Below the pieces are notes generated by a model. It did not search any database, was not told where the DNA came from, and saw only the letters and a program-made list of their open reading frames with translations. A DNA stretch of 40,846 nucleotides, from NCBI GenBank assembly GCA_040757115.1, contig JBFLYA010000006.1:1-40846 (forward strand), in the 5' to 3' direction. The stretch is from a bacterium. GTDB taxonomy: Bacteria > UBA9089 > CG2-30-40-21 > SBAY01. The position numbers and the translations under genes are program-made. Shown here in pieces: positions 19,728-38,800 of this stretch (its first letter is position 1; each line of letters opens with the position of its first letter).

Positions 19728-19794
19728 TAGAACATAAATCCTCATAGTTATCCAACCTCTTCTCTTATTCTATGCTTGAGAGGGATCCCTGTCT

Positions 19795-20332: not shown

Positions 20333-20396
20333 AAAAAATTAAAAAATTTTTGCAACCTTTTTGACAATTTTGTAATCTATTTATTTAAAGGGAAGA

Positions 20397-20583
20397 AATT
20401 TCCACCTGTGCGGTTAAATGTAAAATGGATAATGTAAAATGAGAAATGTCCAATGAAAATGTATAACTGAAAGGTAATGAGTCTTGCGAAGTCCTAAAAT
20501 TTCCCAAATTTCATTTCCTATTTTACATTTATTTTTCCTTTGCGTCTCTGCGATGAATTAGTCTAATCGCACAGGTGGAAAAA
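20397..20583. mobile_element. MITE-like element family 2, copy A (TIRs ttccacctgtgcgRtta / taaYcgcacaggtggaa)
   Basis: ~187 bp, AT-rich core with 'tgtaaaatg' repeats. It is the reverse complement (a few mismatches) of 31461-31651. A solo terminus lies at 867-884. Confidence 0.7.
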
Positions 20584-23700: not shown

Positions 23701-26700
23701 CGGATAGACTTTGGGACAACTAAAACAATTAAAATAAGCACTACCAATGGAAGTGGACAATTTACTACTACTTTTACAGTCGATTACCAACCAGGCGGAA
23801 CTACTACTCTAACCGCAACAGGGCTTACTTCCAATTTAGTCGCTACGGCTACCTTTGTGACCATCACCCAGCCAACTACCGTTATTGAGCAAGAAGACTT
23901 CTGGAGATATACATATTCACCTAACTCTGGCTGGGAAACATTAGGATATGATGACAGTAGTTGGAGTAAAGGCAGAGCTCCTTTCGGAAATCAGTCTGAT
24001 GGTGATTGGATTCCTCATACAGATTGGCCTGCAGGGACGACACTATACCTTAGAAAGTATATTGATTTACCTGCATCTGCTAAATTGACTATCTATACTG
24101 GCGTAGATAACGAAATCCATATCTATATAAATGGTGTTAATATTTTTAATGCCTCTGCTCATGGATTTACATATCGCTGGGAATATACATTTGACATTCC
24201 TAAAGGATATATAAACCCAGGAAGAAATGTAATTGCTGTGCAAGCAGTGGATTGGGGTGGCGCGACAGGATTTGATCTGAAGGCTATTGCTGAGGTCAAT
24301 ATACCTCCAATGGGTTCTATGGCAATTAGTTCTGTGCCTTCGGAGGCAAAAATTTACTCAGATGGAATGGATACAGGTAAACTCACTCCTGCTGTCTTGA
24401 CCAATCTATCCACAGGTAGTCATCAAATTGTCTTAACTAAGCCTTTGTATAACAATTGGGCTGAAACTGTTACTGTATCCTCAGGACAGACTACAGAAAT
24501 AGATGTTCCTCTTAGACTTTCTCCAACAATTATCCTTACCCCTATTTCTGGTACTGTTGGAATTATAATCACAGTTACAGGTGAAAACTTTAGTCCAAAT
24601 GAGGCAATTAGGATTGATTTTGGTCTGATTTCTTCAATTACCATCGCCAGTACTACTGCCTACGGCACCTTTGCCACTACTTTTACGGTATCTTCTCAAC
24701 CAGCAGGAACCACTACTATTGTGGCTACTGGTCTTACCTCCGGGTCAAAAGCCTATGCTACCTTCACGCTTACTATTCCGGCGCAAGCAACACTGACTGT
24801 CCGATTAGACCAGATTGATGCCGCTAAATTCCCAACTATCGAATGCCATGTCCGTGTAACTCAAGGAACTACATCTATTGCAGGACTGACTGCGGATAAT
24901 TTCCAATTAACCGAGCAGTCTGAATTAGAATCTATAGCGACCGTAGAGATAATCAGTGTCAGTGCAACTAATTCCGCCGGAGTAGCCATCGCCCATGTAT
25001 TAGATAGAAGTGGTAGTATGCAAGGTCAGAAGATAACAGATGCTAAAACTGCCGCTAATTCCCTTGTTGATATGATGCAACCTCTGGATAGGATGGCGAT
25101 AGTCTCCTTTGCTTCAAATGTTACTGTTGACCAATCCTTTACCAGTAATCAATCTGCCTTACATACCGCTATTAACAACTTAGTTGCCGATGGAGCCACG
25201 GCTTTGTATGATGGCATATATACGGGAATAGGTCAATGCACACAAGAAATTGGTGTTAAAGCAGTTATTGCTTTAACCGATGGTCAAGAAAATAGTAGTT
25301 CACATACTCAGCAACAGGTAATTGATTATGCTATTGCCAGTGCTGTGCCTGTTTATACCATTGGTTTAGGCAGTGATGTGAATACTGACATACTTACGCA
25401 AATTGCCACAACTACTGGTGGAACATATCATTTTGCACCAAACTCTACTCAGCTACAAGAGATATTTGCAGATATTAGAGAAGAGATAGAACAGCAGTAT
25501 TTAGTTACTTATAATACTCATAACCCGAATTATGATGGCACACTGCGGAATGTAGTCATTACTGCGAGTTATAACTCTGCCATTGGCTCAGATTCTGGGA
25601 CATATCGTGTAGATGAACCACCGAAAATTATCCGCACCCCAGAAACTATTGCCTTAGGTTCACAAAGTCAACCTGCCAACCAACCATTGACTATCGCCGC
25701 AACCATTACTGATAATACCGCAGTTACTAATGCCACCTTATTCTATCGACATTCGGGAACACTAACCAGCTATTCTCAGCTGACTATGACTCATATGGGT
25801 AATAACCTGTATAAAACAACTATCCCAGCCGCAAGTGTTAATTACCCGGGCGTGGATTACTATATCACTGCCTCAGATGGTAGATTAGTCGCTTCAGACC
25901 CAAAAAACAATCCTGAAATCTACCCATATCAGATTGCGGTATATCCTAATGAAAAACCAGTGATTATACATACCCCTGTTTCTGGAGCGTTAATTAACTC
26001 ATCAGTAACTATTACTGCCTATGCTACGGATACCACAGATTATGTTACTTCGGTAACCTTATCCTATCGTATCAAGGGTTATGTGCTTTATGAGAATGTA
26101 GTTATGACTAAGGCAGGTAATACTTATACCGCTACCATACCGGCGAATAAGATGACCTTTGTCGGGGTCGAATACTATATTGTCGCGATGGACAATTATG
26201 GTTTGCGGGCATATCACGGCACAGATGTTAATCCACACTACATTCGTCCCAATGTTCCACCGAGTATAACCATTACCGCACCACCAGCACAAGGGGCTTA
26301 TGCTACCAGTTCTTATACCATCGCCTGGGTAGATGCTGACCCGGATAATGATGCCCAAATATCACTCTACTATGATACCAATAACACTAACTATGACGGC
26401 TCAACTATCACTACTGGACTTTCTGAGGATAGCAGTATCAATAGCTATATCTGGAATCTCTCAACTATCCCCGAAGGTAGTTACTATATCTATGCCTTGA
26501 TAGATGATGGCACTAATACACCCGTCTATGACTACAGCAATGGACCATTAAATATTGATCATTCACTACCACGAGCAACCATTACTACCACCCCTGCCTC
26601 ACCAATTACTGCTGCTGGGACAGTCTATGTTATCTTAACTGCCTCAGAAAAATTATCTGCCGTCTCACTGACATTTACTCCCTATGGTAAATCACCTCTC

Positions 26701-29700
26701 TCTATACCGTTGACTACCACGGATTATATCACCTGGCAAGGTAATTTCCAGGTTACTCTTTATACTGGCGATGGAATAGGCACATTTAACTATTCCTTGA
26801 AAGATTTATTCAATAATATTGTTACCGGAAGCCAAACTTTTGAGATAGATGTTTCAGGGGTAATATTTACGCAGTCAAATTATACCTTCAATGTTGAGAA
26901 GGACTATAATCAGCAGGGATTGGTTAGGGTTAAGAATATCGATAATGAGCCACACCAATTCTTCGCAGAATCTATTAATGTCCCTAAACCAATAGCGGTA
27001 AATTTTATGGGTGATGGTTCTGTGGATAATCCGATTACCTTACAGCCCGGGGAAGAGACAAATCTTATTCTATCAATGCATACCCAATATGCCACGAAAA
27101 CAAATTACTCCCTCGGCGGTAACTTGACCAATGATAAAGGGTTAATCTCGCATACGACAATAAATATTAATGTTCGCCTGCCCGAGGTTAGATTTACGGT
27201 TAGTCTTATCAGTGAAGACCCAATGACATTAGCCAAAACCTATAGAATTACCAATACGGGTGCTGACCCAATTCCGGATTTAACCATTGACCTCGGTGCA
27301 CTTAAAGATAAGGTGATTATGCATCCGTTACTCTATTCGCTATACTTAGGCACATCGAGTTCAGTTGAATTTAAGCTCATCCCCATTATCACTGAGACTT
27401 TTAGTGGGCTATCTGGCACCTGGAGTGTGAGTAGTGGAGATAAGGTGGTGGAGGTTCTTACTACCTGGCAGGTTACAGGAACCATCTATAAGGTAACATT
27501 AAATCAGCCCAAACTCGTCTTTGATATTAATTATCTATATCAATATGAATTAGAACAACATAAAGTAATAGTGGGATATTGTCCTAATGGAGCACCAATC
27601 TGGGGATGGGTAGCAGACCCGAGGTTAATTAAGAGCATTGACCCATTCTATATACCAACAGGATTTGGAACTTCAAATGTCAAAAGTGCAAACTTGAGTA
27701 TGCATTTTACAGAAGGAAATATTGAGCAAAATCGCAATACCTATATCTATATGAATAATAATGAAGTGGGTAGATTAATAAATGTTAATCCGGAAGGGTA
27801 TTATACATTTCCAGTTGCGCCAGACTATTTTATGTATCCCGACCCGTATGTTGGTAATCGCCGCAATGAGATTAGTATGGAGACAGATATAAATCCTGCT
27901 CATTTAGCCTGGGTAGGTAATTTCAGGGTTACCATACTCTTAGATAAGTTTGAGGTGTATGTTATTGCTACAAGTTCAGCGGCGGCTACCGCTACTGCCT
28001 GGGCATTACCCTATGTGCATCATAATTCAGACCAACTATTTGTCAATATTACTCAACCACCAGAGGGATTTGAGTATAAGATAGGTGCGAAGGTGCAGAT
28101 TAAGGCTGAGGTAAAGGATGAGCATGACATCTTCCAGTGGCTCTGCAATGTCTGTGTAAGTTTTACCAATAGCACCCAAACACTGAATTTATACGATGAT
28201 GGCATGCATAATGATGCCGGTGTAAATGACGGTATTTATGCCAACTACTGGTATCCTGCCAATGAAGGTAGTGTTACTATCACCGTGGTGGCGAATAACT
28301 GTAAGACACAGGCGACTGCGACAGTTAGTGGCAATATTATTGGCAATCGACCGCCGAGCATAGACATTCTTACCCCTACTGAATTACAAACATTACAAGG
28401 AACTACCACTATCTCGTATCAAGCCACAGACCCAGATGGCGATAGTTTATATTTCTATATCTATTATAGTGCCTCCTCGATTGGTCCCTGGAATCTGTTC
28501 TACAGTGGCGTAAATACTGTCTATCTCTGGAATACTAATATCCTGGAAAATGGTATTTACTATATTCGGGTAGTAGCCAGTGACCCTAACGGATTGACAG
28601 GCTCAGATACCGTCAAGGTAACTGTAAAGAATAAAAAACCAAAGATTAGAGTTAATCCTACTGCTGGCTCTCAATGTGCCTTAGTTACGGTTTATGGTGA
28701 AGACTTTGGTGCGACAGAGACGGTTCAGATTGACTTTGGGTTACATCTTAATATTACTACTGGCATGACTAATGCCGAAGGCTCATTTACTACCTTTTTT
28801 ACTGTCGATACGCAACCGGTTGGCACAGTCTCAGTAGTCGCTACCGGTATTGATTCACACCTGAGGGCCTCTGCAGATTTCACTATTACTGCACTACACT
28901 ATATCAAAGGATATATTCGCTATGCGAATGGTGAAGGAATTCCAGGCATCAAAGTCTATTTAATGAGCCCAATAGTAGATGACTGTTTTATCACTTCATC
29001 TGATGGTTATTATGAATTTACCGGTTTGCCCACCGGATATTATCGTGTAAGACCATATAAAGAATGGTATACATTTGAGCCAGCAGGAAGGGAATACCGC
29101 ATACTTACTGCCAGTTGCGATAATCAGAACTACATCGGGACACCACAGAGGTATTATATTAAAGGTAGATGTAACACAGAGGCAGATGAAGGGATAGGTG
29201 GAGTGCAGGTAGTTTTATCAGGTTCTGTGCAGGCAACCTATACTACTAATGCCAGTGGATATTATGCCTTCTGGGATGTTCCGGCGGGCACATATACCAT
29301 CACCCCTTATAGGCAATTCTATACCTTTGTTCCGGCAAATAGAATCCTTCCTAACATAGATTTCCATCAAGCAGGACAGGATTTTGTTGGCACATCTACT
29401 ACTGTAGAAAGATATTATATCAAAGGAACTATCACGGATATGAGTCATAATCCGTTAGCCGGGGTAAGGGTATATCTGTTTGGCACGATGGATAATGTTT
29501 TTATCACCAGAGCAGATGGTTATTATGAATTTACCAATCTTGAGTCAGGTTATTATCGAACCAGCCTGTGGAAACAAGGATATACCTTCGAACCATCTGG
29601 CAGAAGATATGAATACCTGTGTAGCCATTATGAGCATCAAGACTTTGACGATGATGGTCCACCACAAGGAATTCAACCACCACCACCTACCAGTACACTC

Positions 29701-30372
29701 ACATCGCTATTCTTTGTAGTAAAGGATAATGCAGGAAAAGGAATACCAGGGGCAAAGATTACACTGATGCCATTAAATGTAGAAAATGTAGTGAGGGTCT
29801 TCAGACCCGTTGGGGAAAACGCAGAAAATGTAGTGAGGGTCTTCAGACCCGTTGGGGAAAACGCATCTAAAGATGCTCACTACAGACCCGTCTCGGCTGA
29901 GATTATCACTGATGAAAATGGTATGGCAGATATGGTCAAGCCTATCTGGGAATTGTCTGGTAACTACACCATAAAGGTGGTAAAGTTAGGGTATAACTGT
30001 GAAAGTGAGGAGATTACTATTACGGATGAGGAATCGGTTTTTGACCTTGACTTTGTCTTAGAAGCATCACAGCCGTTACCACCCCAGAATAAACTTTACC
30101 AGAATTACCCAAATCCATTCAATCCCAATCAGGAAGAAACACAGATTCCGTATGATTTAGCCGTGAATGCTCATATAGTCATTAAGATTTACAACATTGC
30201 TGGAGAATTAGTCAGGACATTAGAGGAAGATAAACTTGCCGGGTCAAATATTACTACCCCATGGAATGGTAGAAATGATGATGGTGATATTGTCTCCAAC
30301 GGCGTCTATTTCTATCAATTACATATTGGTGGAAGTGTAGTTGGGACTAAGAAGATATTAGTAATAAAATAG
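20725..30372 (+). CDS. giant secreted surface protein (3215 aa): Gly-rich parallel β-helix repeats, IPT/TIG x4, GH2-N-like sugar-binding jelly roll, PEGA, vWFA, CarboxypepD_reg-like x3, T9SS-type C-terminal sorting domain
   Basis: Signal peptide, then ~15 PbH1-like coils, each N.I..N.I.DN.GG.GG...G.GIYL.SS. IPT/TIG units follow (ISPTSGTVGTIVTVEG.GFG.TE...IDFG). YDDSSW...IYTGVDNEIHIYINGVNI...DIPKGYINPGRNVIAV matches the GH2 N-terminal sugar-binding fold. A PEGA domain (SSVPSEAKIYSDG...TPAVLTNLSTGSHQIVLTKP) is present. The vWFA MIDAS motif DRSGSM...ALYDGI...LTDGQEN is present. YIKGY.R...G.G..GV.VYL..... repeats occur three times. The C-terminus NYPNPFNP.T.I.Y.L...A.V.IKIYNIAGELVRTL......G.....WNG.N..G..V.SGVYFY matches Por_Secre_tail/FlgD-Ig-like. 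Confidence 0.88.
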   Translation: MCKKIIWGIMLGIVMIINAKVAVATDVSGTITSNTTWDVAGSPYIITADVIVDQGVTLEIEPNVVVKFATDTSLISYGTLTAVGIPNGTITFTSNKPTPAAGDWTSIKLSGTGSSRSQISYCLTQYAKQAVYLENTDNVTITYNTIRDNKGNDGIDNQATTGEIGAGIYLVSSTNNNIENNTIFNNIGGQGGDGGYGGGVGGAAAGGPGVGIYLSSSSKNTISQNTIFDNIGGQGGRGALFGGGGSGGSGAGIYLSSASVENTISQNTIFNNAGGQGGQSGDSAPGGAGDPGVGYGIYIDDSSCYNNTIATTNTYNGEPIHFYYSQTGIIIEDQILTGSPTTNLGKINLINCSDFTIRGNTISGARGYSGESGDPEGEQGGNGVGIYLYRSGSGVVTSNSISDNIGGRGGTGRKGWYAASTGGSGGMGCGIYLLSSTDVEISDNIISNNQGGRGGGSAGWGSGGKGGLGVGISLGSSTLNSISNNTISNSQGGLYGGGWPCGRNGLGCGIYIDSNSYNNIIDTTNTSDGQPIHYYYNRTGIIIENQTLTGTPTTNLGKIVLINCSNFIIRNNTISGARGDNGKTGWANQVGHPGEIGAGIYILSSTGNTIIDNTISDNQGGLGGGGGGDASGGPGGIGTGIYLGSSTNNTISGNTISNNSGGEGGHATYGNNSSVGGCGGDGAGIYLLSSTDNTILSNNILENSGGRGGGVYQQGNTGGVGAGIYLNSSDNNNISRNSITDNNGGTGGTGNCSRNKAGGAGGIGAGIYLNSSDNNNIRENNAITDNSGGTGGSGCPIGSNGNGVGIYGASSEVANLIYNNIYNNTTYNLSTDISPGTQTAEYNWWGTSVESEIVAKLSGKIDYIPWLMGTWTESAQITISPTSGTVGTIVTVEGEGFGSTETVQIDFGTTKTITTAATNGLGTFSVTFTIDNQPAGTTTVTATGLTSSYSATATFTIISITQPEITLISPTSGTVGTIVTVEGNGFGSTEAIRIDFGTTKTIKISTTNGSGQFTTTFTVDYQPGGTTTLTATGLTSNLVATATFVTITQPTTVIEQEDFWRYTYSPNSGWETLGYDDSSWSKGRAPFGNQSDGDWIPHTDWPAGTTLYLRKYIDLPASAKLTIYTGVDNEIHIYINGVNIFNASAHGFTYRWEYTFDIPKGYINPGRNVIAVQAVDWGGATGFDLKAIAEVNIPPMGSMAISSVPSEAKIYSDGMDTGKLTPAVLTNLSTGSHQIVLTKPLYNNWAETVTVSSGQTTEIDVPLRLSPTIILTPISGTVGIIITVTGENFSPNEAIRIDFGLISSITIASTTAYGTFATTFTVSSQPAGTTTIVATGLTSGSKAYATFTLTIPAQATLTVRLDQIDAAKFPTIECHVRVTQGTTSIAGLTADNFQLTEQSELESIATVEIISVSATNSAGVAIAHVLDRSGSMQGQKITDAKTAANSLVDMMQPLDRMAIVSFASNVTVDQSFTSNQSALHTAINNLVADGATALYDGIYTGIGQCTQEIGVKAVIALTDGQENSSSHTQQQVIDYAIASAVPVYTIGLGSDVNTDILTQIATTTGGTYHFAPNSTQLQEIFADIREEIEQQYLVTYNTHNPNYDGTLRNVVITASYNSAIGSDSGTYRVDEPPKIIRTPETIALGSQSQPANQPLTIAATITDNTAVTNATLFYRHSGTLTSYSQLTMTHMGNNLYKTTIPAASVNYPGVDYYITASDGRLVASDPKNNPEIYPYQIAVYPNEKPVIIHTPVSGALINSSVTITAYATDTTDYVTSVTLSYRIKGYVLYENVVMTKAGNTYTATIPANKMTFVGVEYYIVAMDNYGLRAYHGTDVNPHYIRPNVPPSITITAPPAQGAYATSSYTIAWVDADPDNDAQISLYYDTNNTNYDGSTITTGLSEDSSINSYIWNLSTIPEGSYYIYALIDDGTNTPVYDYSNGPLNIDHSLPRATITTTPASPITAAGTVYVILTASEKLSAVSLTFTPYGKSPLSIPLTTTDYITWQGNFQVTLYTGDGIGTFNYSLKDLFNNIVTGSQTFEIDVSGVIFTQSNYTFNVEKDYNQQGLVRVKNIDNEPHQFFAESINVPKPIAVNFMGDGSVDNPITLQPGEETNLILSMHTQYATKTNYSLGGNLTNDKGLISHTTININVRLPEVRFTVSLISEDPMTLAKTYRITNTGADPIPDLTIDLGALKDKVIMHPLLYSLYLGTSSSVEFKLIPIITETFSGLSGTWSVSSGDKVVEVLTTWQVTGTIYKVTLNQPKLVFDINYLYQYELEQHKVIVGYCPNGAPIWGWVADPRLIKSIDPFYIPTGFGTSNVKSANLSMHFTEGNIEQNRNTYIYMNNNEVGRLINVNPEGYYTFPVAPDYFMYPDPYVGNRRNEISMETDINPAHLAWVGNFRVTILLDKFEVYVIATSSAAATATAWALPYVHHNSDQLFVNITQPPEGFEYKIGAKVQIKAEVKDEHDIFQWLCNVCVSFTNSTQTLNLYDDGMHNDAGVNDGIYANYWYPANEGSVTITVVANNCKTQATATVSGNIIGNRPPSIDILTPTELQTLQGTTTISYQATDPDGDSLYFYIYYSASSIGPWNLFYSGVNTVYLWNTNILENGIYYIRVVASDPNGLTGSDTVKVTVKNKKPKIRVNPTAGSQCALVTVYGEDFGATETVQIDFGLHLNITTGMTNAEGSFTTFFTVDTQPVGTVSVVATGIDSHLRASADFTITALHYIKGYIRYANGEGIPGIKVYLMSPIVDDCFITSSDGYYEFTGLPTGYYRVRPYKEWYTFEPAGREYRILTASCDNQNYIGTPQRYYIKGRCNTEADEGIGGVQVVLSGSVQATYTTNASGYYAFWDVPAGTYTITPYRQFYTFVPANRILPNIDFHQAGQDFVGTSTTVERYYIKGTITDMSHNPLAGVRVYLFGTMDNVFITRADGYYEFTNLESGYYRTSLWKQGYTFEPSGRRYEYLCSHYEHQDFDDDGPPQGIQPPPPTSTLTSLFFVVKDNAGKGIPGAKITLMPLNVENVVRVFRPVGENAENVVRVFRPVGENASKDAHYRPVSAEIITDENGMADMVKPIWELSGNYTIKVVKLGYNCESEEITITDEESVFDLDFVLEASQPLPPQNKLYQNYPNPFNPNQEETQIPYDLAVNAHIVIKIYNIAGELVRTLEEDKLAGSNITTPWNGRNDDGDIVSNGVYFYQLHIGGSVVGTKKILVIK
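29781..29897. mobile_element. MITE-like palindromic element family 3 inserted in-frame in the giant CDS, with tandem 42-bp duplication
   Basis: gaaaatgtagtgagggtcttcagacccgttggggaaaacgca x2 then tctaaagatgctcactacagaccc. Nested hairpins tgtagtgag/ctcactaca and gggtct-tc-agaccc. The same element lies intergenic at 40607-40704. Translated as ENVVRVFRPVGENA x2 ...KDAHYRPV. Confidence 0.7.
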
Positions 30373-30468
30373 GACGCAGATGTACAGGATTTACAGGATT
30401 TTTAAAAAATATTATCCTAATAATCTACGGAGAAAAATCTTGCGTCCCAAAAAAGGAGGTAAAATAAA

Positions 30469-31413
30469 ATGTTAAACAAAAAGGTACAACAGGTAAGTAT
30501 AACTCTATTTCTTTCTTTACTCTCTACTCTCTACTTTCTACTTCCTAATGCCGAGGCAGGGGCGGATACCGGCGCTGATTTCTTAAAGCTGGGCGTAGGA
30601 GCAAGGGCATCTGCAATGGGTGAGGCATTTTGTGCCGTAGCAGATAGTGTTGACTCTATTTATTACAATCCGGCAGGATTAGCCCGGCTGAAACAAAAAG
30701 AGGTCTCTGCAATGTATGGCGATAAACGAGAGGATACTGCCCGCACATCATTAGTTTATGCCCAGCCACTACAAGAATGGGAAGCTGGTGGCGTATTAGG
30801 AATAGGTATCATCTATCAAGACTTAGGTGAGATAGAACTGCGTGATAAATCTAATCAACCACAAGGTTCTATCAATCCCGCTGAGTTTGCCGTGATTTTC
30901 TCCTATGCGAAAAAGTCTTATGAAAATCTATTATTAGGTGGGAATGTAAAATACATCCAACGCGAGCTTAAGAAAATAAAGGCTAAAGCCGTTGCCTTTG
31001 ACCTTGGTCTCCTATATTTCCCGCAAATCCCAAAATTCCTAAACCTCTCAGGAACAGGTTTAACTACAGGTCTGTGTCTGGAGAATATAGGTAGTAAGAT
31101 AAAGGGTGATGAGTTGCCGTTAAACTTACGGCTTGGTGTAGCGTATTCGCCTTTAAATAATCTCTGCTGTAGTTTAGATGTGAACCAACACCTTTATAAT
31201 TCCGACTTATGTTGGAATCTTGGGCTTGAATATAGATATAGTTTGTTGGCTGTCCGACTGGGCTATTTTGACAAAGGAAGACAGATAAAGGGATTGAGTT
31301 ATGGGTTTGGAATAAAGTATCTGGGTTATCAGCTTGACTTTGCTAATCTTGCCAGTGGTGAGATGGAAAATGCAGAAGATATGAACCGCATATCCCTCTC
31401 AGTGAGTTGGTAG
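30469..31413 (+). CDS. PorV/PorQ-family-like outer-membrane β-barrel protein (T9SS-associated shuttle family); alternative: UPF0164/FadL-like
   Basis: Signal peptide. N-terminal motif GADFLKLGVGARASAMGEAF.AVADSVDSIYYNPAGLA resembles the conserved PorV/PorQ N-terminal block (G..FL.IG.GAR..AMGGAF.AVADD.SA.YWNPAGL). Alternating β-strand pattern with an aromatic C-terminus (SLSVSW). Strong SD aaggagg. Confidence 0.55.
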   Translation: MLNKKVQQVSITLFLSLLSTLYFLLPNAEAGADTGADFLKLGVGARASAMGEAFCAVADSVDSIYYNPAGLARLKQKEVSAMYGDKREDTARTSLVYAQPLQEWEAGGVLGIGIIYQDLGEIELRDKSNQPQGSINPAEFAVIFSYAKKSYENLLLGGNVKYIQRELKKIKAKAVAFDLGLLYFPQIPKFLNLSGTGLTTGLCLENIGSKIKGDELPLNLRLGVAYSPLNNLCCSLDVNQHLYNSDLCWNLGLEYRYSLLAVRLGYFDKGRQIKGLSYGFGIKYLGYQLDFANLASGEMENAEDMNRISLSVSW

Positions 31414-31460
31414 CCGCAGGCTTGTATCCTGCGTAGCTCGGGTCAGTTCTGAAGAGTAAA

Positions 31461-31651
31461 TTTCCACCTGTGCGATTAGACTAATTCATCGCAGAGACGC
31501 AAAGGAAAAATAAATGTAAAATGTAAAATAGGAAATGAAAAATGGGAAATTTTAGTACTTCGCAAGACTCATTACCTTTCAGTTATACATTTTCATTTTA
31601 CATTTCTCATTTTACATTATCCATTTTACATTTAACCGCACAGGTGGAAAA
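31461..31651. mobile_element. MITE-like element family 2, copy B (inverted relative to copy A)
   Basis: tttccacctgtgcgattagactaattcatcgcagagacgc...catttaaccgcacaggtggaaaa is approximately the reverse complement of 20397-20583. It is followed by a tctgcgtctctg motif also seen at 10470-10495, 10705-10730 and 32750-32775. Confidence 0.7.
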
Positions 31652-31792
31652 TTCTCTGCGTCTCTGTGCCTCTGCGGTGAACAATTACGAAAAATTTCTC
31701 TCTTCAAACAAAAGCAAAAAGGAGGTGGTAAGATATTTCAACGCTGGCGAAGAGTTAACATAAAAATCTAAAACAAAAGGAGGTGAAAAAAA

Positions 31793-32428
31793 ATGAAAAA
31801 ACTAACATTACTTACTATGCTTGTCCTTGGGCTACTTGCTACCGCTACCTATACAACTACAGTATACGCAGAAGATACACAAGCTTATTATACGCAGAAC
31901 AACACACCTGTTCCTTCATCTATTGCATGGGGAACTGGAGTGAATACACCCTACCAGAGCTTCGGTGGAGGTCCCTGCGTAGCAACAATGACCCATACTT
32001 TTTACTATGACAGAGAATGTATAGTAGTGGATATTGATGATGACCACCTTGAATGGACATCCAGAGCGGGTGAGGCTGATTATATGATTATGTGGACAAA
32101 TATCTATGCCTGGGCAGCGGCTACTGGAACATATTATTTGCAGATAACTGCTACAGGAACTGACCATATAAAGAGAAGTGATGGAGCGACTATCACCACA
32201 TCCTATGCGTTAGTACCACCAAGTGGTCCACATCCTACTCCAGGTGATTTTATCCTGGCACCAGCCTTCAATGGTAATCTACCAAATACTCCAATTGAGG
32301 GTGTCAATGGTTCCCCAGTAAGATATGATAGAGACCTGTGGGCAAGGGTCCAACCAACCAACAATAATCCATTAGGAAAATACGAGGATGTATTCTACCT
32401 CACCTTTGCAATTACACTGACACCGTAG
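31793..32428 (+). CDS. small secreted hypothetical protein (211 aa) with signal peptide
   Basis: MKKLTLLTMLVLGLLATATY signal, strong SD aaggaggtg. Locally elevated GC (~45%). No recognisable domain. It is followed by a hairpin plus T-tract. Confidence 0.55.
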   Translation: MKKLTLLTMLVLGLLATATYTTTVYAEDTQAYYTQNNTPVPSSIAWGTGVNTPYQSFGGGPCVATMTHTFYYDRECIVVDIDDDHLEWTSRAGEADYMIMWTNIYAWAAATGTYYLQITATGTDHIKRSDGATITTSYALVPPSGPHPTPGDFILAPAFNGNLPNTPIEGVNGSPVRYDRDLWARVQPTNNNPLGKYEDVFYLTFAITLTP

Positions 32429-32470
32429 GAGGAACACACTATAAGAGTAGCAGTGTAGAACGAGAAGTAA

Positions 32471-32518
32471 GAGAGACCTGTTTCCTTTTTGTCGGAGAGG
32501 GGCGGGTCTCTCTTTTTT
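32471..32518 (+). terminator. putative rho-independent terminator
   Basis: gagagacc (32471-32478) ... ggtctctc (32505-32512) followed by tttttt, immediately after the stop of the 211-aa gene. The loop is long, so this is only moderately convincing. Confidence 0.45.
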
Positions 32519-32580
32519 ATAGCGGTTATTAACTGGAAGTTTACATAGGATAATACCCATAAATAAGGCATGAGAATAAT

Positions 32581-32706
32581 CGTTCCGTTAGGAACATAAT
32601 ATTGGTAGGAATAGATAGACAAATCAATCAGTTCCGTAGGAACGATATATTGGTAGGAATAGATAGACAAATCAATACAGTTCCGTAGGAACGATATATT
32701 GGTAGA
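32581..32706. promoter_or_regulatory. three tandem ~47-bp direct repeats, each with a gttcc-gta-ggaac hairpin core, 130-250 bp upstream of giant gene 2
   Basis: (c)gttccgt(t)aggaac(a/g)ata(a/t)attggtaggaatagatagacaaatcaat(a)ca x2 plus a truncated third copy. Candidate operator or iteron array. Confidence 0.45.
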
Positions 32707-32834
32707 AAATTTAATTCTAAGTAAAGTTTTGAATAATAACTGCTATATTCTTTGTGTCCTCTGCGTCTCTGCGGTGAAAAACTATTTTAATTTTTTCTCT
32801 TCCCTTTTATACATTTTTATGGTAAAATACTAAT

Positions 32835-35800
32835 ATGCTAAAGAAATTTATCTTAATGTTATTTATATTATTTCCAACTATTAGTAATGCAGGTAATTGG
32901 GTAGCGTTTAAAGAAGGTATTACTTCGCCTACAAAGCCTGAGATTATAGTTGTAAAAGAGGATGCTTCAGGTATTACCTTAGATGCAAGTATCTTGGGGA
33001 TGAAGGTAGAAGCACGGAGCACGGAGCACGGAGCACGAAGTGTAGGGACAGAGATATTTCAGTTGCTTAGTATTCCAGGGCATGAATATAGCTATACCCA
33101 GGAAGTAGGCAAACCCAAACTGCCATTCCTTCAAATTCTCCTTGCCATCCCGGATGATGTAGAAATTAATCTTTCCTCTATTTCTACTTCCCACTTCCCA
33201 CTTCCTACTTCCTACTTAATCTATCCCGTGCCAAAGCAAGTAATCAAGACCACCCCTGAAGGCTACAAATACATCGCTGAGGAGTTCTACATAGATGAAG
33301 ATTTCTACAAGCAAGACATCTGGTATCCGCAAGAGGATAAAGTTATCACTTATCATACCAGTTATCTTCGTGACCAGCGGATACTTTATCTACAAATCCA
33401 TCCTATTCAGTTTAACCCGGCAAAAAATCAGCTTCAGGCTTATTCTAATCTGAAGATAGAGATAAAATACATGGCTAAAAAGGGCAGAAGTATTTCGTTA
33501 AAGCAGTCAAAGATGGCAGAGCCTTTTGCTAATGTCTTGCAGAAATCTGTATTGAATTACCTAGGCTACGGGTCTAAAGACCCTCACTACTTTCGTGCAC
33601 CTAAAAGAATAGGCACGGTTACTTACCCCAGTATCCTTAAAAGCCCCAATAACTCAGCAGATTATTTGATTATCACTTCTTCATCTTATTACCATAATTC
33701 TGATGTAGCCAGACTGGCTGAACATCGTGCTGAGTTCAACGGCTTTGATGTGGCTGTGGTTAATACTACCTCTATCTACAATGAATTCCCTATTACCGAT
33801 AAAGGCACAACTACATCTATTAAGGACTTCATCAGATATGTCTATTATAATTGGTCTGCCCCATCTATGGAGGATAATCATCTGGGATATATCCTTATAT
33901 TTGGGGATGGGGAGGAGACCCGGGATTCTTATGTTCCATCTAAAGAGATTCGAGAGATATATCCAACTATAAGAAATCCGGTATCTGACCCGTGGTATGC
34001 TTGTATTAATGATGAAGATTTGGATTGGAGCTACTGGACAGTGGATATAATGATTGGACGATTGCCTGTAGAGACTGGGACAGATGCAAAGACAATGGTA
34101 GATAAAACAATCGGCTATGAAAAGACCCCTGAGTTAGGTCAATGGCGTAACAAGATTTTATTAGTTACAGGCGAAGATGGTCTTGAACTCACAGTAATAA
34201 AGGATAATTACCTTTTACCTGCCGGGTTTGAAGTCGCTGAAACTACCCGCGGTGATGAGGTGTTTAATGCCATAGATAGTGGTCAATTATTGGTCTCCTA
34301 TTCTGGACATGGTGTCCCATTCGGATGGGCAACGAATCCTGCTTTTTCTGCTGAGCACGATGTCTCAAAACTCTCTAATAGAGGCAAACTACCTGTAGTT
34401 TTAGCCGCTGCTTGTGATACCGCTTGTTTTCAATATGATTATGATTATGTTATAGGAGAAACATTCCTCACAAAAGAAAATGGAGGGGCTATTGCCTATT
34501 GGGGGGCATCTGATCCTACTGGGGCAAATACTGATATATTCATTATAAAGGCATACCAGTTCATAGCCGACTACACCCCAAATACCTTCTATCTTGGACA
34601 AATAACCCTTAATACCTATTTTCAGTCATTACCACAAGAATGGAACCTATTAGGAGACCCTGCACTAACTATCTCACGGGTAGGTCTTGAACCAGGTAAG
34701 GCAGAGTTAGAGGTTGAACCAGTTGATATCAGGTTTAATCCCCAATCCCCTAAACCTGGCCAGCAGACAAATATCTCTGCAATTATCCATAATCTCGGGG
34801 ATATAGATGCAAAAGATGTATTAGTCCAATTCTTCCTTGGCAAACCTGGTGAGGGTGGGATGGAAATAGGCTCTAAAACAATCCCTGCCATCAAGAGTAA
34901 TGACCAGGAAACAGCAGTCATAGATTGGAAACAAAATCTACCTATCGGAGAATATCCAATCTATGTAATAATCAATCCTTATAATACCATTTTAGAAGCA
35001 GGGACAATCAATAATACCACCTGTAAATCTATAGAGATAAATTTCTATCAAGAAGGCTATCCTAAAATCCCTGAGGGAGGATTTACCATAGAAAACTCTC
35101 CTGTCATAGGAGATGTAGATGGGGATGAGGATTTAGAAGTGATGGCTTGTGCAGGAGGATATGTGTATATCTGGCATCATAATGGTTCGCCACTAAATAA
35201 TTGGTATAAGATAATCCCTGACCTTGCAACACCTTCTCCTCCTCTTTTAGCCGAGGTGGATAATGATGATGGATTAGAGGTGATAAAGAATGGTGGTGGA
35301 GGATTCTACATCTTAAGGTCTGATGGTAGTAATCTCGCTGGTTTCCCAATCTCAGGGTCAAATACAAGCAGTCCTGCCCTTGGAGATATAGATGGAGATG
35401 GGGATTTAGAGATTGCTATAGGGATGAACAATAAATTCTATCTCTTCCATCATACCGGAGAATTAGTAAAAGGAGATTGGCCTATAGATATAGCCGTAAA
35501 CCAGAACTATCACCCAATGATAGCAGATATAGATAGAGATGGTCATCTTGAAATTATTGTCCTTGCTGATAAGATATATGTCTTTAATAGCGAAGGTAAG
35601 TTAATTCCTGGGCAATGGCCTAAGAGTATCTCAGGGTATATATTTACTAATGGATTGGCTATAGGTAATATTGATAATGATGATGAATTAGAGATTCTCA
35701 TTGTGACACAAGAGGAACCAAAGATATTTTTGCACGCCTTGAATTATGATGGAACTAATGTGACAGGTTATCCGAAACAGGTAGGAGGAATGGATTATGA

Positions 35801-38800
35801 CTATCCATATTCAGTTACCCCTGGAGATATTGACAATGATAAAGAAATGGAAATAATTATTGATTGTAGAAAATCTATATATGTATTAAATTCTGATGGT
35901 AGTGATTTTCCAGGTTGGCCCAAAGGAGGAAGGGAAAGGGGACCATCTTATCCAGTAATTGCAAATGTAGATGGAGATAAAGTCTTAGAGATTATAGAAA
36001 GTAGAGATGATATGAAGGGAACGGTCACTATTTGGAATAATGATGGGACTAATCAAACAGATTTGTTTTTGAAACCAGGGGATAAAAGGACATCACCCTT
36101 TGTTGTGGGAGATATGGATTTAGATGGAGATATAGAAGTAATCTGTGGTGGGGAGGATTATAAAGACTTAGGTCGGGCATTACCAAAGATTTACATCTGG
36201 GACTACTGGGGCAGTTGTACCGCTGGGGCACTGGAATGGCCGATGGCAAATCACGATATGCGCCGGACTAATTGCTATAATACAGATATTGTCCCCCCTT
36301 CTCGCATAACTGACCTTAAGGCGCTTAATCCCAAACCTACCTCTATTGACTTAACCTGGACTGCACCTGGTGATGACAAAGATAAAGGCTCTTCTACCTG
36401 CTACTACATCCGCTACGCTACCTGGACCATTACCCCACAAAACTGGCACCTGACTAATAAAGCTACATCCACTATTGTTCCCAAAGATGCTGGCTCTCCT
36501 GAATCTTTTACCGTCCCTAACCTCTGCCCAACTACCACCTACTACTTCTGTATTCGCGCCAGGGATGATGACTTCAATCTCTCCCCACTTTCTAATATCA
36601 CCTTTGAGAAAACACTGTCACCAGCAATGATTACCCTGATTTCACCTACAAGAGGTGTAGTAGGTAAGCGGGTTACTATTAGCGGGTGCAATTTCTACCC
36701 GACAGAGACCATTCGCATAGAATTTGGCAATACTACCACTATTGCTCTATCTACCTGTGTTGGTGGTTCTTTTACTACTACCTTTACCGTTAATGACCAG
36801 GGATTTGGCACGATAACCATTACTGCCTATGGACTTATTTCAGGATATGAGGCAAGGGCGTCCTTTTATATCACTGCCGTAGAATATTTTCTGTTTGCCA
36901 CAATTTCCTCTCCCCAAATAGCCGGGACAGGATTTCGAATAAAGATGACTGCTTATGATGAATTTGGTGATGTAGTGCTAAATTTCAAAGATAAAGTTGG
37001 ACTCTCTGACCTTTCTCAAACCATTCAACCTACTATCACCTCTAACTTCACTGATGGCATCTGGGATGGCACAGTTAGCATCACCAGAGCAGGCACGAGC
37101 GCGATTACTGCAGGTTACCAGAGTAAGACAGGCACAAGCAATCCATTTTATGTCTGGCCAGGCGAGCCAGTTAAATTCATCGTCTATCCTGAAAATCCTA
37201 TCTACATCCTGGCAGGGGGTTCAGTAAGCATCACTGCCCAATTAAGCGATGTTTATGGTAATGCGGTTGGGTCTGCAGGGATTAGTTGTAATTTAGAGGT
37301 AGTGGTGCTTTCTGGTAAAGCAGGAACACTATCTGCCACCACTTCTACTACCACCAATACCGGTCAGATAAACACTATTACCTACTGGGTTTCCCCTCAT
37401 GCCAACGATAAAGTCAGGATAAAACTCCTATCTACTCTACCACCTGCTACCTCCGGCACTATTACTACCACTTCTGGCGAATTAGCAATGTTCACCTTCG
37501 ATACTATTGCTACCCAGACTGCGGGGATGAATTTCCCCATTAAAATCACCGCCAGAGATGCCTACGAAAATCCTATCCCTTTTACCAGGACAGTAACTCT
37601 AATTGACTTCAGTAACAGCCTTAAACCTACACAGACTACTTCATTTATAGATGGTCTGTGGGCTGGATTTGGCTCTATCACCGTAAGAGGCACTACCAGT
37701 ATTACTGTGATTTATGGGGATATTCGAGGCACAAGTAACACCTTCTGGGTCTGTGGCGGCGAGGTAGAGTATTTTGTCATTAGCAGCATAACTACTCAAA
37801 CCGCAGGTATTAGTTTCCCAGTCAGCATCAATGCCTATGACCGCTGGAGAAATATTGCTGATATGTTTAACTCATCCGCCATACTAACTGATACCAGCCA
37901 CAGCATTAGCCCGACTAAAACCACAAACTTTAGCCTGGGCATCTGGGATGGCACAGCTAGCATCACCAAAGCAGGCACAACCACGATTATGGCAGGTTAT
38001 CAAGGTAAAACAGGCACAAGCAATCCCTTCTTTATTACCCCCAGTAGCCTCGACCATTTCTTAATCGGCACTATCACCAATCAAATTGCTGGGATAGATT
38101 TTCCTGTCGTCCTCACTGCAAAAGATGCCTACAACAATACAGTAAGCACCTTTACCGATAAGGTGCAATTGGAAGATACCAGCCTAACATTGAATCCAAA
38201 GATAACTGATAATTTTGTGGCAGGTATCTGGGATAGTATTGGCTCTATTACCAGAACAGGCACTACCTCGATTACAGCAAGTTACCAGGGAAAAACAGGC
38301 ACAAGCAATCCCTTCTTAGTTAGCCATAACATTCTTGCCCATTTTCTGATGGGGACTATTAGCAATTGTGTAGCAGGCGTTCCTTTTCCCATAACCATTA
38401 TGGCACAAGATTCTTACGGTAACACGATGCTTAACTTTAGTGATAAAGTCCAGTTAGAGGATAGCTCGCTGAGCTTGAATCCGAAGTTAACCACCAACTT
38501 TGTGGCAGGTATCTGGGATGGCATTGGCTCTATTACCAGAACAGGCACAACCTCGATTATGGCAGGTTACCAGGGGAAAACAGGCACAAGCAATCCCTTC
38601 TTAGTTAGCCATAACCGCCTTGACCATTTTCTGATTGGGACTATTAGCAATTGTCTTGCGGGCATTCCTTTTCCCATCACCATTATGGCACAAGATTCTT
38701 ACGGTAACACGATGCTTAACTTTAGTGATAAAGTCCAGTTAGAGGATACCTCACTGACCTTAAATCCGAAGCTAACCACCAACTTTATGGCAGGTATCTG

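What the first reader, a model, noticed from the sequence alone, without database searches (positions are those of the whole stretch)
30469..31413. PorV/PorQ-like β-barrel gene directly downstream of a CTD-bearing giant protein, with no other recognisable T9SS genes in the window
Both giant proteins end in a Por_Secre_tail/FlgD-Ig-like C-terminal domain, which in Bacteroidota is the T9SS cargo tag bound by PorV. A PorV/PorQ-like N-terminal block (GADFLKLGVGARASAMGEAF.AVAD...YYNPAGLA) sits in a 314-aa signal-peptide protein 96 bp after the adhesin stop, inside the same MITE-bracketed segment. In a non-Bacteroidota-looking genome, this cargo-plus-shuttle pairing beside a secretin raises the possibility of a reduced or non-canonical CTD export route.
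Basis: partly seen in the sequence, partly recalled or inferred. Interest (0 to 1): 0.7.

Follow-up and report, generated by a model that had tools for sequence, protein, structure and literature searches.

The report
Cargo-linked PorV/PorQ-family outer-membrane barrel
The gene is a real PorV/PorQ-type outer-membrane barrel, already annotated as such, and it belongs to a large, widely conserved pairing in which such barrels sit directly beside the secretion-tagged surface protein they probably hold or shuttle; whether a full type IX secretion machine exists in this genome cannot be told from this contig.

Summary
ORF 30469..31413 (314 aa) passes the PorV/PorQ family model (184 bits, cutoff 90). 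It fails the PorV, PorQ and PorV2 equivalogs and the FadL/TodX model. Its confident model is a 14-strand barrel closest to solved PorV. Both giants carry genuine type-A T9SS C-terminal domains (CTDs).

Two things are new. First, the second giant is a gingipain-type zymogen (prodomain, C25 catalytic domain, Ig-like domain), not the PorU sortase. Second, the pairing is a rule. In 161 loci from many phyla, 81% of PorV-like genes that have at least 400 nt of flank on both sides (112 of 139) have a CTD gene directly adjacent on the same strand, against 0.12 CTD genes per 10 kb elsewhere. The same four-gene order recurs in a sister MAG, and the genome probably holds at least three paralogous barrels.

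The best reading is a cargo-dedicated CTD shuttle or anchor. This is the type-A counterpart of the known type-B CTD/PorP-SprF pairs.

The secretin link is not conserved, and the downstream MITE copy is an incidental insertion. The window is a whole contig, so the presence of SprA and PorKLMN cannot be tested. A T9SS-independent route stays possible but unsupported.

The parts
20725..30372 (+). Giant adhesin-like protein A (3215 aa): signal peptide, parallel beta-helix/NosD repeats, PEGA, VWA, CarboxypepD_reg repeats and a C-terminal type-A CTD
   Evidence: Pfam and NCBIfam domains. The body has almost no homologues among related loci, only one domain in L069.
30097..30369 (+). Type-A T9SS C-terminal domain of protein A (residues ~3125-3215)
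   Evidence: TIGR04183 scores 35.4 bits (cutoff 23) and FlgD_ig 27.9 (GA 27). The tail is 94% identical to the CTD tail in the syntenic locus L168.
30373..30468 (+). 96-nt spacer between A and the barrel gene. It has a Shine-Dalgarno site and no terminator-like hairpin.
   Evidence: Sequence and terminator scan. The equivalent spacer in L168 is 95 nt.
30469..31413 (+). PorV/PorQ-family outer-membrane 14-strand beta-barrel (314 aa, signal peptide 1-30). This is GenBank MEW6617921.1.
   Evidence: NF033709 scores 184.3 (cutoff 90). The PorV, PorQ and PorV2 equivalogs fail. The AF2 model has pLDDT 91.6. Foldseek matches PorV 8gl6_F and 6h3i_F at E 4e-17 and 3e-16 with TMq 0.76, against TodX/FadL at E 1e-8 to 1e-6. 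The PDB profile search gives PorV E 5.5e-38. Annotation.
31461..31655 (.). MITE-like element, an inverted copy of 20394-20581. It is an insertion relative to the syntenic locus.
   Evidence: The DNA alignment to L168 skips window 31437-31652.
20394..20581 (.). MITE-like element, upstream copy, 144 nt before the start of gene A
31793..32428 (+). Small secreted protein p211 (211 aa, signal peptide). It matches no family and is conserved only in the sister-MAG cassette.
   Evidence: No Pfam or NCBIfam hit. It is 53% identical to the 220-aa ORF at the same position in L168, with the first 32 residues identical. No homologue was found in the loci held at that point (L001-L167).
32835..40604 (+). 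Giant protein B (2589 aa): gingipain-type prodomain, C25 peptidase, CARDB/Ig, FG-GAP propeller, fn3, tandem Ig-like repeats and a type-A CTD
   Evidence: Peptidase_C25 scores 226 bits and Propeptide_C25 72 bits. PorU NF033707 scores only 196.7 against a cutoff of 420. It is 62% identical to the syntenic L168 gene.
32835..35024 (+). Protease module of B (residues 1-730), with catalytic His492 (nt 34308-34310, YSGHG) and Cys527 (nt 34413-34415, AAACDT)
   Evidence: His and Cys are nearly invariant in alignment A4 and align to the RgpB and PorU dyads. The AF2 model has pLDDT 82.7. Foldseek gives RgpB E 3e-21, Kgp 4e-20 and gingipain prodomains TMt 0.74-0.80, with PorU not in the top 50.
40347..40601 (+). 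Type-A T9SS C-terminal domain of protein B
   Evidence: TIGR04183 scores 47.4 (cutoff 23), Por_Secre_tail 27.6 and CHU_C 29.4 (GA 27). The best NCBIfam match is to the CTD end of the PorZ model, 72.7 bits.

Best explanation
The gene encodes a compact PorV/PorQ-family outer-membrane beta-barrel dedicated to neighbouring cargo. It is probably co-transcribed with the giant adhesin upstream. Its inferred job is to bind the type-A C-terminal domain of that adhesin, and possibly also that of the gingipain-like protease two genes downstream, on the outer face of the outer membrane. It would act as a cognate shuttle and/or non-covalent anchor. This is how PorV holds PorU and PorQ holds PorZ in Porphyromonas, and how PorP/SprF-like barrels serve their neighbouring type-B CTD cargo in Flavobacterium.

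Shown: family membership, the PorV-like fold, genuine CTDs on both giants, and a very strong conserved same-strand adjacency of such barrels with CTD genes. Also shown: a conserved cassette (adhesin, barrel, small secreted protein, C25 protease) with a second syntenic copy in a sister MAG.

Inferred: several barrel paralogues in this genome (from adjacent protein accession numbers). Physical CTD binding. That translocation itself uses a SprA-type translocon encoded elsewhere in the genome.
For: Family and fold. NF033709 scores 184.3 bits. The PDB profile hit to PorV has E 5.5e-38. The AF2 model has pLDDT 91.6, and Foldseek puts PorV about nine orders of magnitude better than TodX/FadL.

Cargo tags. 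TIGR04183 is passed by both giants.

Genetic coupling. Among 177 PorV-like ORFs in 161 loci, 105 of 161 have a CTD-ending ORF directly upstream on the same strand, with a median gap of 57 nt. 112 of 139 have one on either side. The background is 7 CTD ORFs in 566 kb lying more than 6 kb away. Eleven cases have an upstream protein of at least 1500 aa; one is an Elusimicrobia gene of at least 3491 aa ending 15 nt before the barrel. The cargo bodies are unrelated to each other and only the CTD is shared.

Dedicated rather than general. The barrel fails the PorV equivalog (106.9 against 250). It also lies outside the PorU-linked clade, whose members do pass PorU at 974 bits and PorV at 255 bits. 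L092 carries two cargo-barrel pairs in tandem. The window genome appears to hold at least three paralogues, MEW6617921, MEW6618793 and MEW6618799.

Cassette. The sister-MAG contig L168 has the same order: CTD tail, 95 nt, barrel, 220-aa ORF, C25 giant.

Precedent. PorU and PorZ are anchored through PorV and PorQ (PMC8545088). Type-B cargo is genetically linked to cognate PorP/SprF shuttles (PMC12618676, PMC9143113).
Against: No binding or secretion data exist, and I could not run a complex prediction. Between the two paralogous cassettes the adhesin CTD is 94% identical while the barrel is only about 70% identical. That is not what tight CTD-barrel co-evolution would predict, although gene conversion of the CTD could explain it. 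The barrel is short (314 aa against 402 for F. johnsoniae PorV), so the long surface loops of PorV are reduced. The current view in Bacteroidota is that one PorV serves all type-A CTDs (PMC12618676). Canonical porU-porV adjacency shows that a CTD neighbour can be a machinery component rather than cargo. No T9SS core gene is visible, so the pathway context is assumed.
Confidence: 0.6

Rival explanations
1. It is simply the organism's general PorV (or PorQ) of a complete canonical T9SS encoded elsewhere, and it happens to lie next to one of many cargo genes.
For: It passes the PorV/PorQ family model and is closest in fold to PorV. T9SS genes are normally scattered, so their absence from a 41-kb contig is uninformative. 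FCB-group MAGs in the same family carry full PorU-PorV-M6i blocks.
Against: It scores 106.9 against the PorV cutoff of 250 and 94.9 against the PorQ cutoff of 220. It falls outside the PorU-linked clade. There appear to be at least three paralogues in the genome and a duplicated cassette. The neighbouring C25 protein is not PorU. Adjacency to heterogeneous cargo is the rule for the closest relatives.
Confidence: 0.12
2. It is a self-contained, T9SS-independent surface-display module. In a lineage lacking SprA and PorKLMN, the CTD protein would cross the outer membrane by another route (for example a secretin or BAM-assisted route) and the PorV-like barrel would be its sole receptor or anchor.
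For: Family members with adjacent giant CTD genes occur in MAGs labelled Elusimicrobia, Hydrogenedentota, Nitrospira, Desantisbacteria, TA06 and FCPU426. The literature states that T9SS genes are absent outside the FCB group (PMC11285876). No T9SS core gene lies within 10 kb in L001, L165, L166 or L168. A secretin lies 3 kb upstream in the window.
Against: No genome was shown to lack the core. MAG taxon labels were not verified. The CTDs are ordinary type-A T9SS signals. A plugged 14-strand barrel cannot itself pass a 3000-aa protein. Secretin adjacency occurs in 1 of about 165 other loci. The published survey statement predates most of these MAGs.
Confidence: 0.15
3. The barrel is the membrane partner of the downstream C25 protease. 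That protease would act as a lineage-specific PorU-like CTD peptidase or sortase, giving a mini attachment complex that processes the upstream adhesin.
For: The canonical arrangement is a C25 peptidase (PorU) next to PorV. B keeps the catalytic His and Cys and a probably retained-type CTD that matches the PorZ and PorU CTD ends. Barrel-C25 linkage is conserved in L168. By sequence, the best PDB hit of B is PorU at 65 bits.
Against: B scores 196.7 against the PorU cutoff of 420, while true PorUs score 974. Its fold, including the prodomain, matches gingipains, and PorU is absent from the top 50 structural hits. Its closest homologues include an archaeal protein, P0122 in L082. A lone paralogue without a barrel exists in L167. 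No C25 gene accompanies the barrel in more distant relatives.
Confidence: 0.1
4. It is a FadL/TodX-type channel for hydrophobic compounds, and its position next to CTD genes is incidental.
For: It belongs to the same superfamily fold. There is a weak Toluene_X hit at 17.4 bits, and TodX and FadL appear among the structural matches.
Against: It is below the Pfam threshold of 29.7. PorV matches are far stronger. The 81% adjacency with CTD genes, against 0.12 per 10 kb background, is incompatible with chance.
Confidence: 0.03

Closest known systems
PorV (LptO) of the Bacteroidota T9SS (F. johnsoniae Fjoh_1555, PDB 6h3i_F/8gl6_F; P. gingivalis PG0027)
   Same: Same family model (NF033709). Same 14-strand FadL-like barrel with the conserved N-terminal block FLK.G.GARA..MG.A..A.ADD....YYNPAG. 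Best structural match, TMq 0.76. It sits next to a gene whose product carries a CTD.
   Different: It fails the PorV equivalog (106.9 against 250). It is about 90 residues shorter, with reduced loops. It is not next to a PorU. It is probably one of several paralogues. It comes from an unclassified non-Bacteroidota MAG. Association with SprA is unknown.
PorQ-PorZ and PorV-PorU anchoring pairs of the P. gingivalis attachment complex
   Same: A PorV/PorQ-family barrel holding a CTD-retaining surface protein is the proposed mode of action (PMC8545088). The CTD of B best matches the PorZ CTD end and the CTD of A best matches the PorU CTD end.
   Different: It fails the PorQ equivalog (94.9 against 220). 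The partners here are a giant adhesin and a gingipain-like protease, not PorZ or PorU. No A-LPS context is known.
PorP/SprF-like cognate shuttles encoded next to type-B CTD cargo (SprB/SprF and others) in Flavobacterium
   Same: The genetic logic is the same: each large surface protein gene is followed by its own outer-membrane barrel gene, with several such pairs per genome (PMC12618676, PMC9143113).
   Different: The barrel family differs (no PorP_SprF PF11751 hit). The CTD is type A (TIGR04183), not type B (TIGR04131 scores only 18.7 against 35). Pairing of type-A cargo with dedicated PorV-family barrels is not described in the papers I found.
FadL/TodX/OmpP1 hydrophobic-compound channels and Treponema UPF0164 proteins
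   Same: Same superfamily fold. It passes Pfam UPF0164 (40.1 against 21.4).
   Different: It is below the Toluene_X threshold. The structural similarity is much weaker (TM 0.55-0.59). The genomic context is CTD proteins, not catabolic genes.
Gingipains RgpB/Kgp (for giant B)
   Same: Prodomain, C25 catalytic domain, Ig-like domain, adhesin region and type-A CTD. The catalytic His/Cys are conserved. Best structural matches.
   Different: It is 2589 aa with an FG-GAP propeller, fn3 and many Ig-like repeats. Identity is about 20%. It is not from Bacteroidota.

Membership tests
PorV/PorQ family (NCBIfam NF033709) | Whole-protein HMM score at or above the curated cutoff (90 bits) | tested here: met
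   184.3 bits, E 4.2e-54, covering residues 34-313 against model positions 2-325 of 326. GenBank already names it so, as MEW6617921.1.
PorV/PorQ family (NCBIfam NF033709) | Signal peptide plus a 14-strand FadL-like outer-membrane barrel closest to solved PorV | tested here: met
   AF2 pLDDT 91.6 with 14 long strands. Foldseek matches PorV at E 4e-17 and TMq 0.76.
PorV proper (NF033710 equivalog) | HMM score of at least 250 bits | tested here: not met
   106.9 bits. The control L013 barrel next to a true PorU scores 255.1.
PorV proper (NF033710 equivalog) | Genetic or physical partnership with the PorU sortase and the SprA/Sov translocon | tested here: inconclusive
   No PorU is present in the window (B scores 196.7 against 420). 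SprA cannot be searched because the window is the entire contig.
PorQ (NF033711 equivalog) | HMM score of at least 220 bits | tested here: not met
   94.9 bits
PorV2 (NF052325, putative type IX sorting system) | HMM score of at least 325 bits | tested here: not met
   60 bits
FadL/OmpP1/TodX (Pfam PF03349) | Score at or above the gathering threshold of 29.7 | tested here: not met
   17.4 bits over 36 residues. The PDB profile search gives FadL E 7e-3 against PorV 5.5e-38.
UPF0164 (Pfam PF03687) | Score at or above the gathering threshold of 21.4 | tested here: met
   40.1 bits. This family overlaps with Pfam PorV.
PorP/SprF family (Pfam PF11751) | HMM match | tested here: not met
   Not among the hits at E<=1
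Type IX secretion system (as a system) | Cargo with type-A or type-B CTD | tested here: met
   TIGR04183 scores 35.4 (A) and 47.4 (B) against a cutoff of 23
Type IX secretion system (as a system) | Core machinery in the same genome: SprA/Sov translocon, PorK/N ring, PorL/M motor | not testable with these tools
   The window is the whole 40,846-bp contig. Other contigs of the MAG could not be retrieved. None of the window ORFs of 150 aa or more that I scanned matches them.
PorU sortase (NF033707), for giant B | HMM score of at least 420 bits and PorU-like domain organisation | tested here: not met
   196.7 bits, against 974.3 for a true PorU. The fold matches the RgpB and Kgp catalytic domains and prodomains, and PorU is absent from the top 50.
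Peptidase family C25 (gingipain type), for giant B | Pfam C25 plus Propeptide_C25 above threshold and a conserved catalytic His-Cys dyad | tested here: met
   226.1 and 72.2 bits. His492 and Cys527 are conserved.

The most novel reading that the evidence does not exclude
CTD-tagged giant surface proteins and their private PorV-like barrels form a two-gene display module. It would operate in phyla that have no SprA/PorKLMN machinery (for example Elusimicrobiota and the unclassified lineage of this contig). CTD recognition by PorV-family barrels would then be older and more widespread than the T9SS itself, and would be coupled to a different outer-membrane crossing route.
Probability: 0.15. Interest if true: 0.8.

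Novelty: new variant of a known kind. Interest (0 to 1): 0.5.

Why it matters
T9SS work in Bacteroidota holds that one PorV handles all type-A CTD cargo, and that only type-B cargo has private PorP/SprF shuttles. Here type-A CTD genes, many of them giants of 1500 to over 3400 aa, are systematically paired with their own PorV/PorQ-family barrels. The barrel family is very large (12,691 50%-identity clusters at E<=1e-3) and spans many candidate phyla, some outside the group where T9SS is thought to exist.

If the barrels are cognate anchors or shuttles, three things follow. It explains how giant adhesins are held on the surface without the A-LPS sortase chemistry. It gives an annotation rule: a CTD gene followed by a barrel gene is a cargo-anchor pair. 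It also makes directly testable whether CTD recognition predates, or can work without, the SprA translocon.

Tried and rejected
- **Retrieving the rest of the genome.** Exact-protein look-ups failed for the window barrel, P0002, P0003 and P0448. The IlvD look-up returned only a 1.8-kb Logan contig. A genome-wide search for sprA/porKLMN was therefore impossible.
- **Collection scans.** The metagenome scan found no relative above 41% identity.
- **Secretin hypothesis: rejected.** Only L056 has a secretin within 10 kb.
- **MITE-bracketed mobile cassette: rejected as a functional boundary.** The downstream copy is an insertion absent from syntenic L168. Only two full copies exist in the window.
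- **Giant B as PorU: rejected**.
- **The earlier inference from L167 that B is unlinked to the barrel.** It was revised after L168 showed the conserved four-gene order.
- **Complex prediction of the barrel with the CTD.** It was prepared but not submitted. Locus-derived and chimeric sequences are not admissible to the structure tool, and a model without an alignment would be uninformative.
- **Literature.** Searches for T9SS or PorV in Elusimicrobia, Omnitrophota, candidate phyla or by assembly accession gave no precedent and no taxonomy.
- **The afdb50 fold library was unavailable**.
- **Heptamer-repeat complementarity.** The match between 19787-19874 and the signal-peptide coding region of the barrel is low-complexity repeat, not a pseudogene.
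Full report
**Observation**

ORF 30469..31413 (+) is real. It is 314 aa, starts with ATG and follows a strong ribosome-binding site. It begins 96 nt after the stop of the 3215-aa ORF 20725..30372. It has a signal peptide (...LPNAEA|GADT) and the quoted block GADFLKLGVGARASAMGEAFCAVADSVDSIYYNPAGLA at residues 35-72.

It scores 184.3 bits on NCBIfam NF033709, the PorV/PorQ family model (cutoff 90). It scores 43.8 on Pfam PorV (GA 27) and 40.1 on UPF0164 (GA 21.4). It fails the PorV equivalog (106.9 against 250), PorQ (94.9 against 220), PorV2 (60 against 325) and Toluene_X/FadL (17.4 against 29.7).

A profile of 39 homologues hits solved F. johnsoniae PorV at E 5.5e-38 and FadL only at 7e-3. An AlphaFold2 model built on 103 homologues is confident (pLDDT 91.6, pTM 0.86) and shows 14 long strands. 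Foldseek ranks PorV chains 8gl6_F and 6h3i_F first (E 4e-17 and 3e-16, TMq 0.76). TodX and FadL follow at E 1e-8 to 1e-6 with TM 0.55-0.59.

**The neighbours in the window**

- **Type-A CTDs.** Both giants end in genuine type-A T9SS C-terminal domains. TIGR04183 scores 35.4 and 47.4 bits against a cutoff of 23.
- **Protein A** is an adhesin-like mosaic of beta-helix/NosD, PEGA, VWA and CarboxypepD_reg domains.
- **Protein B** (32835..40604) starts with Propeptide_C25 (72 bits), Peptidase_C25 (226 bits) and CARDB, followed by FG-GAP, fn3 and Ig-like repeats.
- **Is B the PorU sortase?** It scores 196.7 bits on the PorU model (cutoff 420). A true PorU from a related FCB-group locus scores 974. 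B keeps the catalytic His492 and Cys527. Its AlphaFold2 model (pLDDT 82.7) matches RgpB (E 3e-21), Kgp (4e-20) and the RgpB and Kgp prodomains (TMt 0.74-0.80). PorU is absent from the top 50. One of its closest homologues, P0122 (36% identity over 95% of the module), sits in an archaeal contig with TFIIB, Alba and Pus10. B is therefore a gingipain-type zymogen with a CTD. That makes it cargo-like, not the PorU sortase.
- **p211.** Between the barrel and B lies a 211-aa secreted protein with no family match.
- **The rest of the window** is housekeeping (RsmD, AroK, IlvD, SurA-like PPIase, PurM, PEPCK). It also holds an orphan PilQ/GspD-type secretin, a four-helix-bundle protein and an ECF sigma factor.
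- **T9SS machinery.** No machinery gene was recognised among the ORFs I scanned.

**Comparative evidence**

The family is very large. It has 12,691 50%-identity cluster representatives at E<=1e-3 and 4,959 at E<=1e-10. Named members are called 'PorV/PorQ family protein'. They come from unclassified MAGs, Elusimicrobia, Desantisbacteria, TA06, Nitrospirota and Ignavibacteriales.

I fetched 80 genome loci and 80 metagenome loci. I built local HMMs for the barrel, the CTD and C25 from the window sequences and iterated them. Counts for the 177 PorV-like ORFs in 161 loci:

| Measure | Count |
|---|---|
| CTD-ending ORF directly upstream, same strand (median gap 57 nt) | 105 of 161 |
| CTD ORF directly downstream | 36 of 152 |
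| CTD ORF on either side | 112 of 139 (81%) |
| Background: CTD ORFs more than 6 kb away | 7 in 566 kb (0.12 per 10 kb) |

A neighbour-joining tree separates several groups:

- **A canonical clade.** Here a ~1350-aa C25 protein precedes the barrel and a ~1050-aa CTD protein follows it. NCBIfam confirms these as PorU (974 bits), PorV (255, passing the equivalog) and the T9SS-dependent M6-like protein (621).
- **A clade preceded by M6-like CTD proteases**.
- **A clade with a ~490-aa CTD protein and two tandem barrels.**
- **A set of long branches that includes the window protein.** Their upstream partners are heterogeneous CTD proteins of 340 to over 3400 aa. Apart from a marginal choice-of-anchor X match in one of them, only the tail is recognisable. 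Examples are an Elusimicrobia gene of at least 3491 aa ending 15 nt before its barrel (L165) and a CLIPPER/CHU_C protein before P0022 (L166). L092 has two cargo-barrel pairs in tandem. Barrels in this group that I scanned (P0063, L007), like those sampled from two other non-canonical clades (L064, L037), pass only the family-level model, as the window protein does.

**The immediate lineage**

The window protein is GenBank MEW6617921.1, already annotated 'PorV/PorQ family protein'. The 70%- and 61%-identical paralogues P0002 and P0003 (MEW6618799 and MEW6618793, both on one 23-kb contig) lie in the same accession block. They are most likely from the same MAG.

A contig of the sister MAG GCA_040755795.1 (L168) carries the orthologue of P0002 in the same four-gene order. 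The order is CTD tail, 95 nt, barrel, a 220-aa ORF, then a Propeptide_C25/C25/CARDB/FG-GAP/fn3 giant. Identities to the window are strikingly uneven:

| Part | Identity to window |
|---|---|
| Adhesin CTD tail | 94% |
| Barrel | about 70% |
| p211 | 53% (first 32 residues identical) |
| Giant B | 62% overall, with a 93% DNA block at 36186-37152 |

So the cassette adhesin-barrel-p211-C25 protease is a conserved, duplicated unit in this lineage. A further C25 paralogue without a barrel also exists (L167). The DNA alignment skips window 31437-31652, so the downstream MITE copy is an insertion and not a cassette boundary. Only one other locus has a secretin within 10 kb, so the secretin link is not supported.

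**Taxon and the T9SS core**

The IlvD protein of the window matches at 100% a protein recorded on a 40,846-bp NCBI contig. The window is therefore the whole contig. The best labelled IlvD relatives are Nitrospirota (83%), many Omnitrophota (72-75%) and Deltaproteobacteria/Thermodesulfobacteriota (73%). No Bacteroidota appear in the top 120. The phylum remains unresolved but is not Bacteroidota by this proxy.

I could not retrieve other contigs of the MAG. The presence or absence of SprA, PorK/L/M/N, PorU and PorZ in the genome is therefore untested. The literature I could read says T9SS genes are absent outside the FCB group and that species without T9SS also lack CTD proteins (PMC11285876). 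It also describes T9SS as rarely if ever found outside Bacteroidetes (PMC5837995). I found no paper on PorV-family barrels in Elusimicrobia, Omnitrophota or similar phyla.

**Mechanism**

The best-supported reading is a cargo-dedicated PorV/PorQ-family barrel that recognises the type-A CTD of its neighbour(s). It would serve as a cognate shuttle and/or non-covalent surface anchor.

*Shown:*
- family membership and fold
- real CTDs on both giants
- extreme and conserved adjacency with CTD genes across unrelated cargo bodies
- placement outside the PorU-linked PorV clade
- cassette conservation

*Inferred from established T9SS knowledge:*
- the presence of several barrel paralogues in this one genome, which rests on adjacent protein accession numbers
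- CTD binding by the barrel
- translocation through a SprA-type channel encoded elsewhere

The established knowledge is this. PorU and PorZ are held on the surface through PorV and PorQ (PMC8545088). PorV is the shuttle for type-A CTDs, and type-B cargo is genetically linked to cognate PorP/SprF shuttles (PMC12618676, PMC9143113).

One weak point is that the nearly identical CTD sits beside a 70%-identical barrel in the paralogous cassettes. Another is the short loops of the barrel. There is also no interaction evidence at all.

Rivals, with my estimates:
- the general PorV of a canonical T9SS (0.12)
- a T9SS-independent display module (0.15)
- a partner of the C25 protease acting as a PorU-like processing enzyme (0.10)
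- a FadL-type transporter (0.03)

**Novelty and verdict**

As a single gene this is a correctly annotated member of a known family. What goes beyond current descriptions is the systematic pairing of type-A CTD genes, often giants, with private PorV/PorQ-family barrels across many candidate phyla. There is also a duplicated adhesin-barrel-small protein-gingipain-like cassette in this lineage. This is the type-A analogue of the type-B/PorP-SprF rule, so I rate it a new variant of a known kind, with interest 0.5. Its specific prop, the secretin, is rejected. The decisive test, a core-gene search in the complete MAGs, is simple but outside the tools available here.

Noticed in passing
window 30008-37152 compared with L168 1-6780: Identity between the two paralogous/syntenic cassettes is mosaic. 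The adhesin CTD tail is 94% identical at the protein level and the barrel about 70%. p211 is 53% identical but its first 32 residues are identical. Giant B is 62% identical overall, with a 93% DNA block at 36186-37152. This suggests gene conversion between cassettes or diversifying selection on the barrel and p211.
   Followed up: partly
window 20394-20581 and 31461-31655: These are two inverted copies (93-96% identity) of a ~190-nt, internally palindromic MITE-like element. They are the only full copies in the window. The downstream one is absent from the syntenic locus L168, so it is a recent insertion.
   Followed up: yes
window 29775-29858 (inside gene A): An in-frame 42-nt tandem duplication (95% identical) contains a GGGTCTTCAGACCC hairpin. 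It encodes ENVVRVFRPVGENA twice. It looks like a small repeat element inserted into the coding sequence just before the CTD region.
   Followed up: no
window 39480-39557 (inside gene B): A proline-rich low-complexity insert, EPRAPNPEPRAPSPESRAPSPESR, interrupts the Ig-like repeat region of giant B.
   Followed up: no
window 19787-19880 and 30512-30561: A heptamer repeat (GTAGAGA)n in the 1.4-kb intergenic region upstream of gene A is complementary to the (TCTCTAC)n-like stretch that encodes the hydrophobic core of the barrel's signal peptide (SLLSTLYFLLP). tblastn shows only low-complexity similarity, not a pseudogene.
   Followed up: yes
window 20216-20311 and 32578-32708: There are further intergenic tandem repeats. 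One has a 14-nt period (TTCTGCCCTCTGCC-like) upstream of gene A. Another is three ~48-nt units, each with a GTTCCGTAGGAAC hairpin, between p211 and gene B.
   Followed up: no
window 15846-17714: An orphan secretin (STN, N0, Secretin_N and Secretin domains) has a ~260-aa N-terminal extension of unknown type. It is below all the PilQ, GspD and SctC equivalog cutoffs and is not flanked by T2SS or type IV pilus genes. The divergent neighbour 14116-15669 has WxL-interacting-protein (WxLIP_PGBD) domains.
   Followed up: partly
L082 10001-13444: A Propeptide_C25 + C25 + CARDB + beta-helix protein, 36% identical to the protease module of giant B, lies in an archaeal contig with TFIIB, Alba, Pus10 and EMC3-like genes. 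The gingipain-type zymogen module is therefore shared across domains.
   Followed up: partly
window 37938-38886: Giant B contains tandem ~95-aa Ig-like units with a 285-nt period. Each of them matches the same L168 segment (6684-6775) at 81-88% DNA identity.
   Followed up: no
L092 (metagenome contig Ga0208246_1000825): Two cargo-barrel pairs lie in tandem on one strand: a CTD protein of 1612 aa, a barrel, a CTD protein of 839 aa, then a barrel. L037, L040, L019 and L043 show one ~490-aa CTD protein followed by two different PorV-like barrels.
   Followed up: partly
Homologues P0018, P0021, P0061, P0084, P0090, P0097, P0109: Some family members are fused to TPR repeats, an OmpA-like peptidoglycan-binding domain, SH3 or HEAT-like repeats. 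This hints that some of these barrels are tethered to the cell wall or to periplasmic partners.
   Followed up: no
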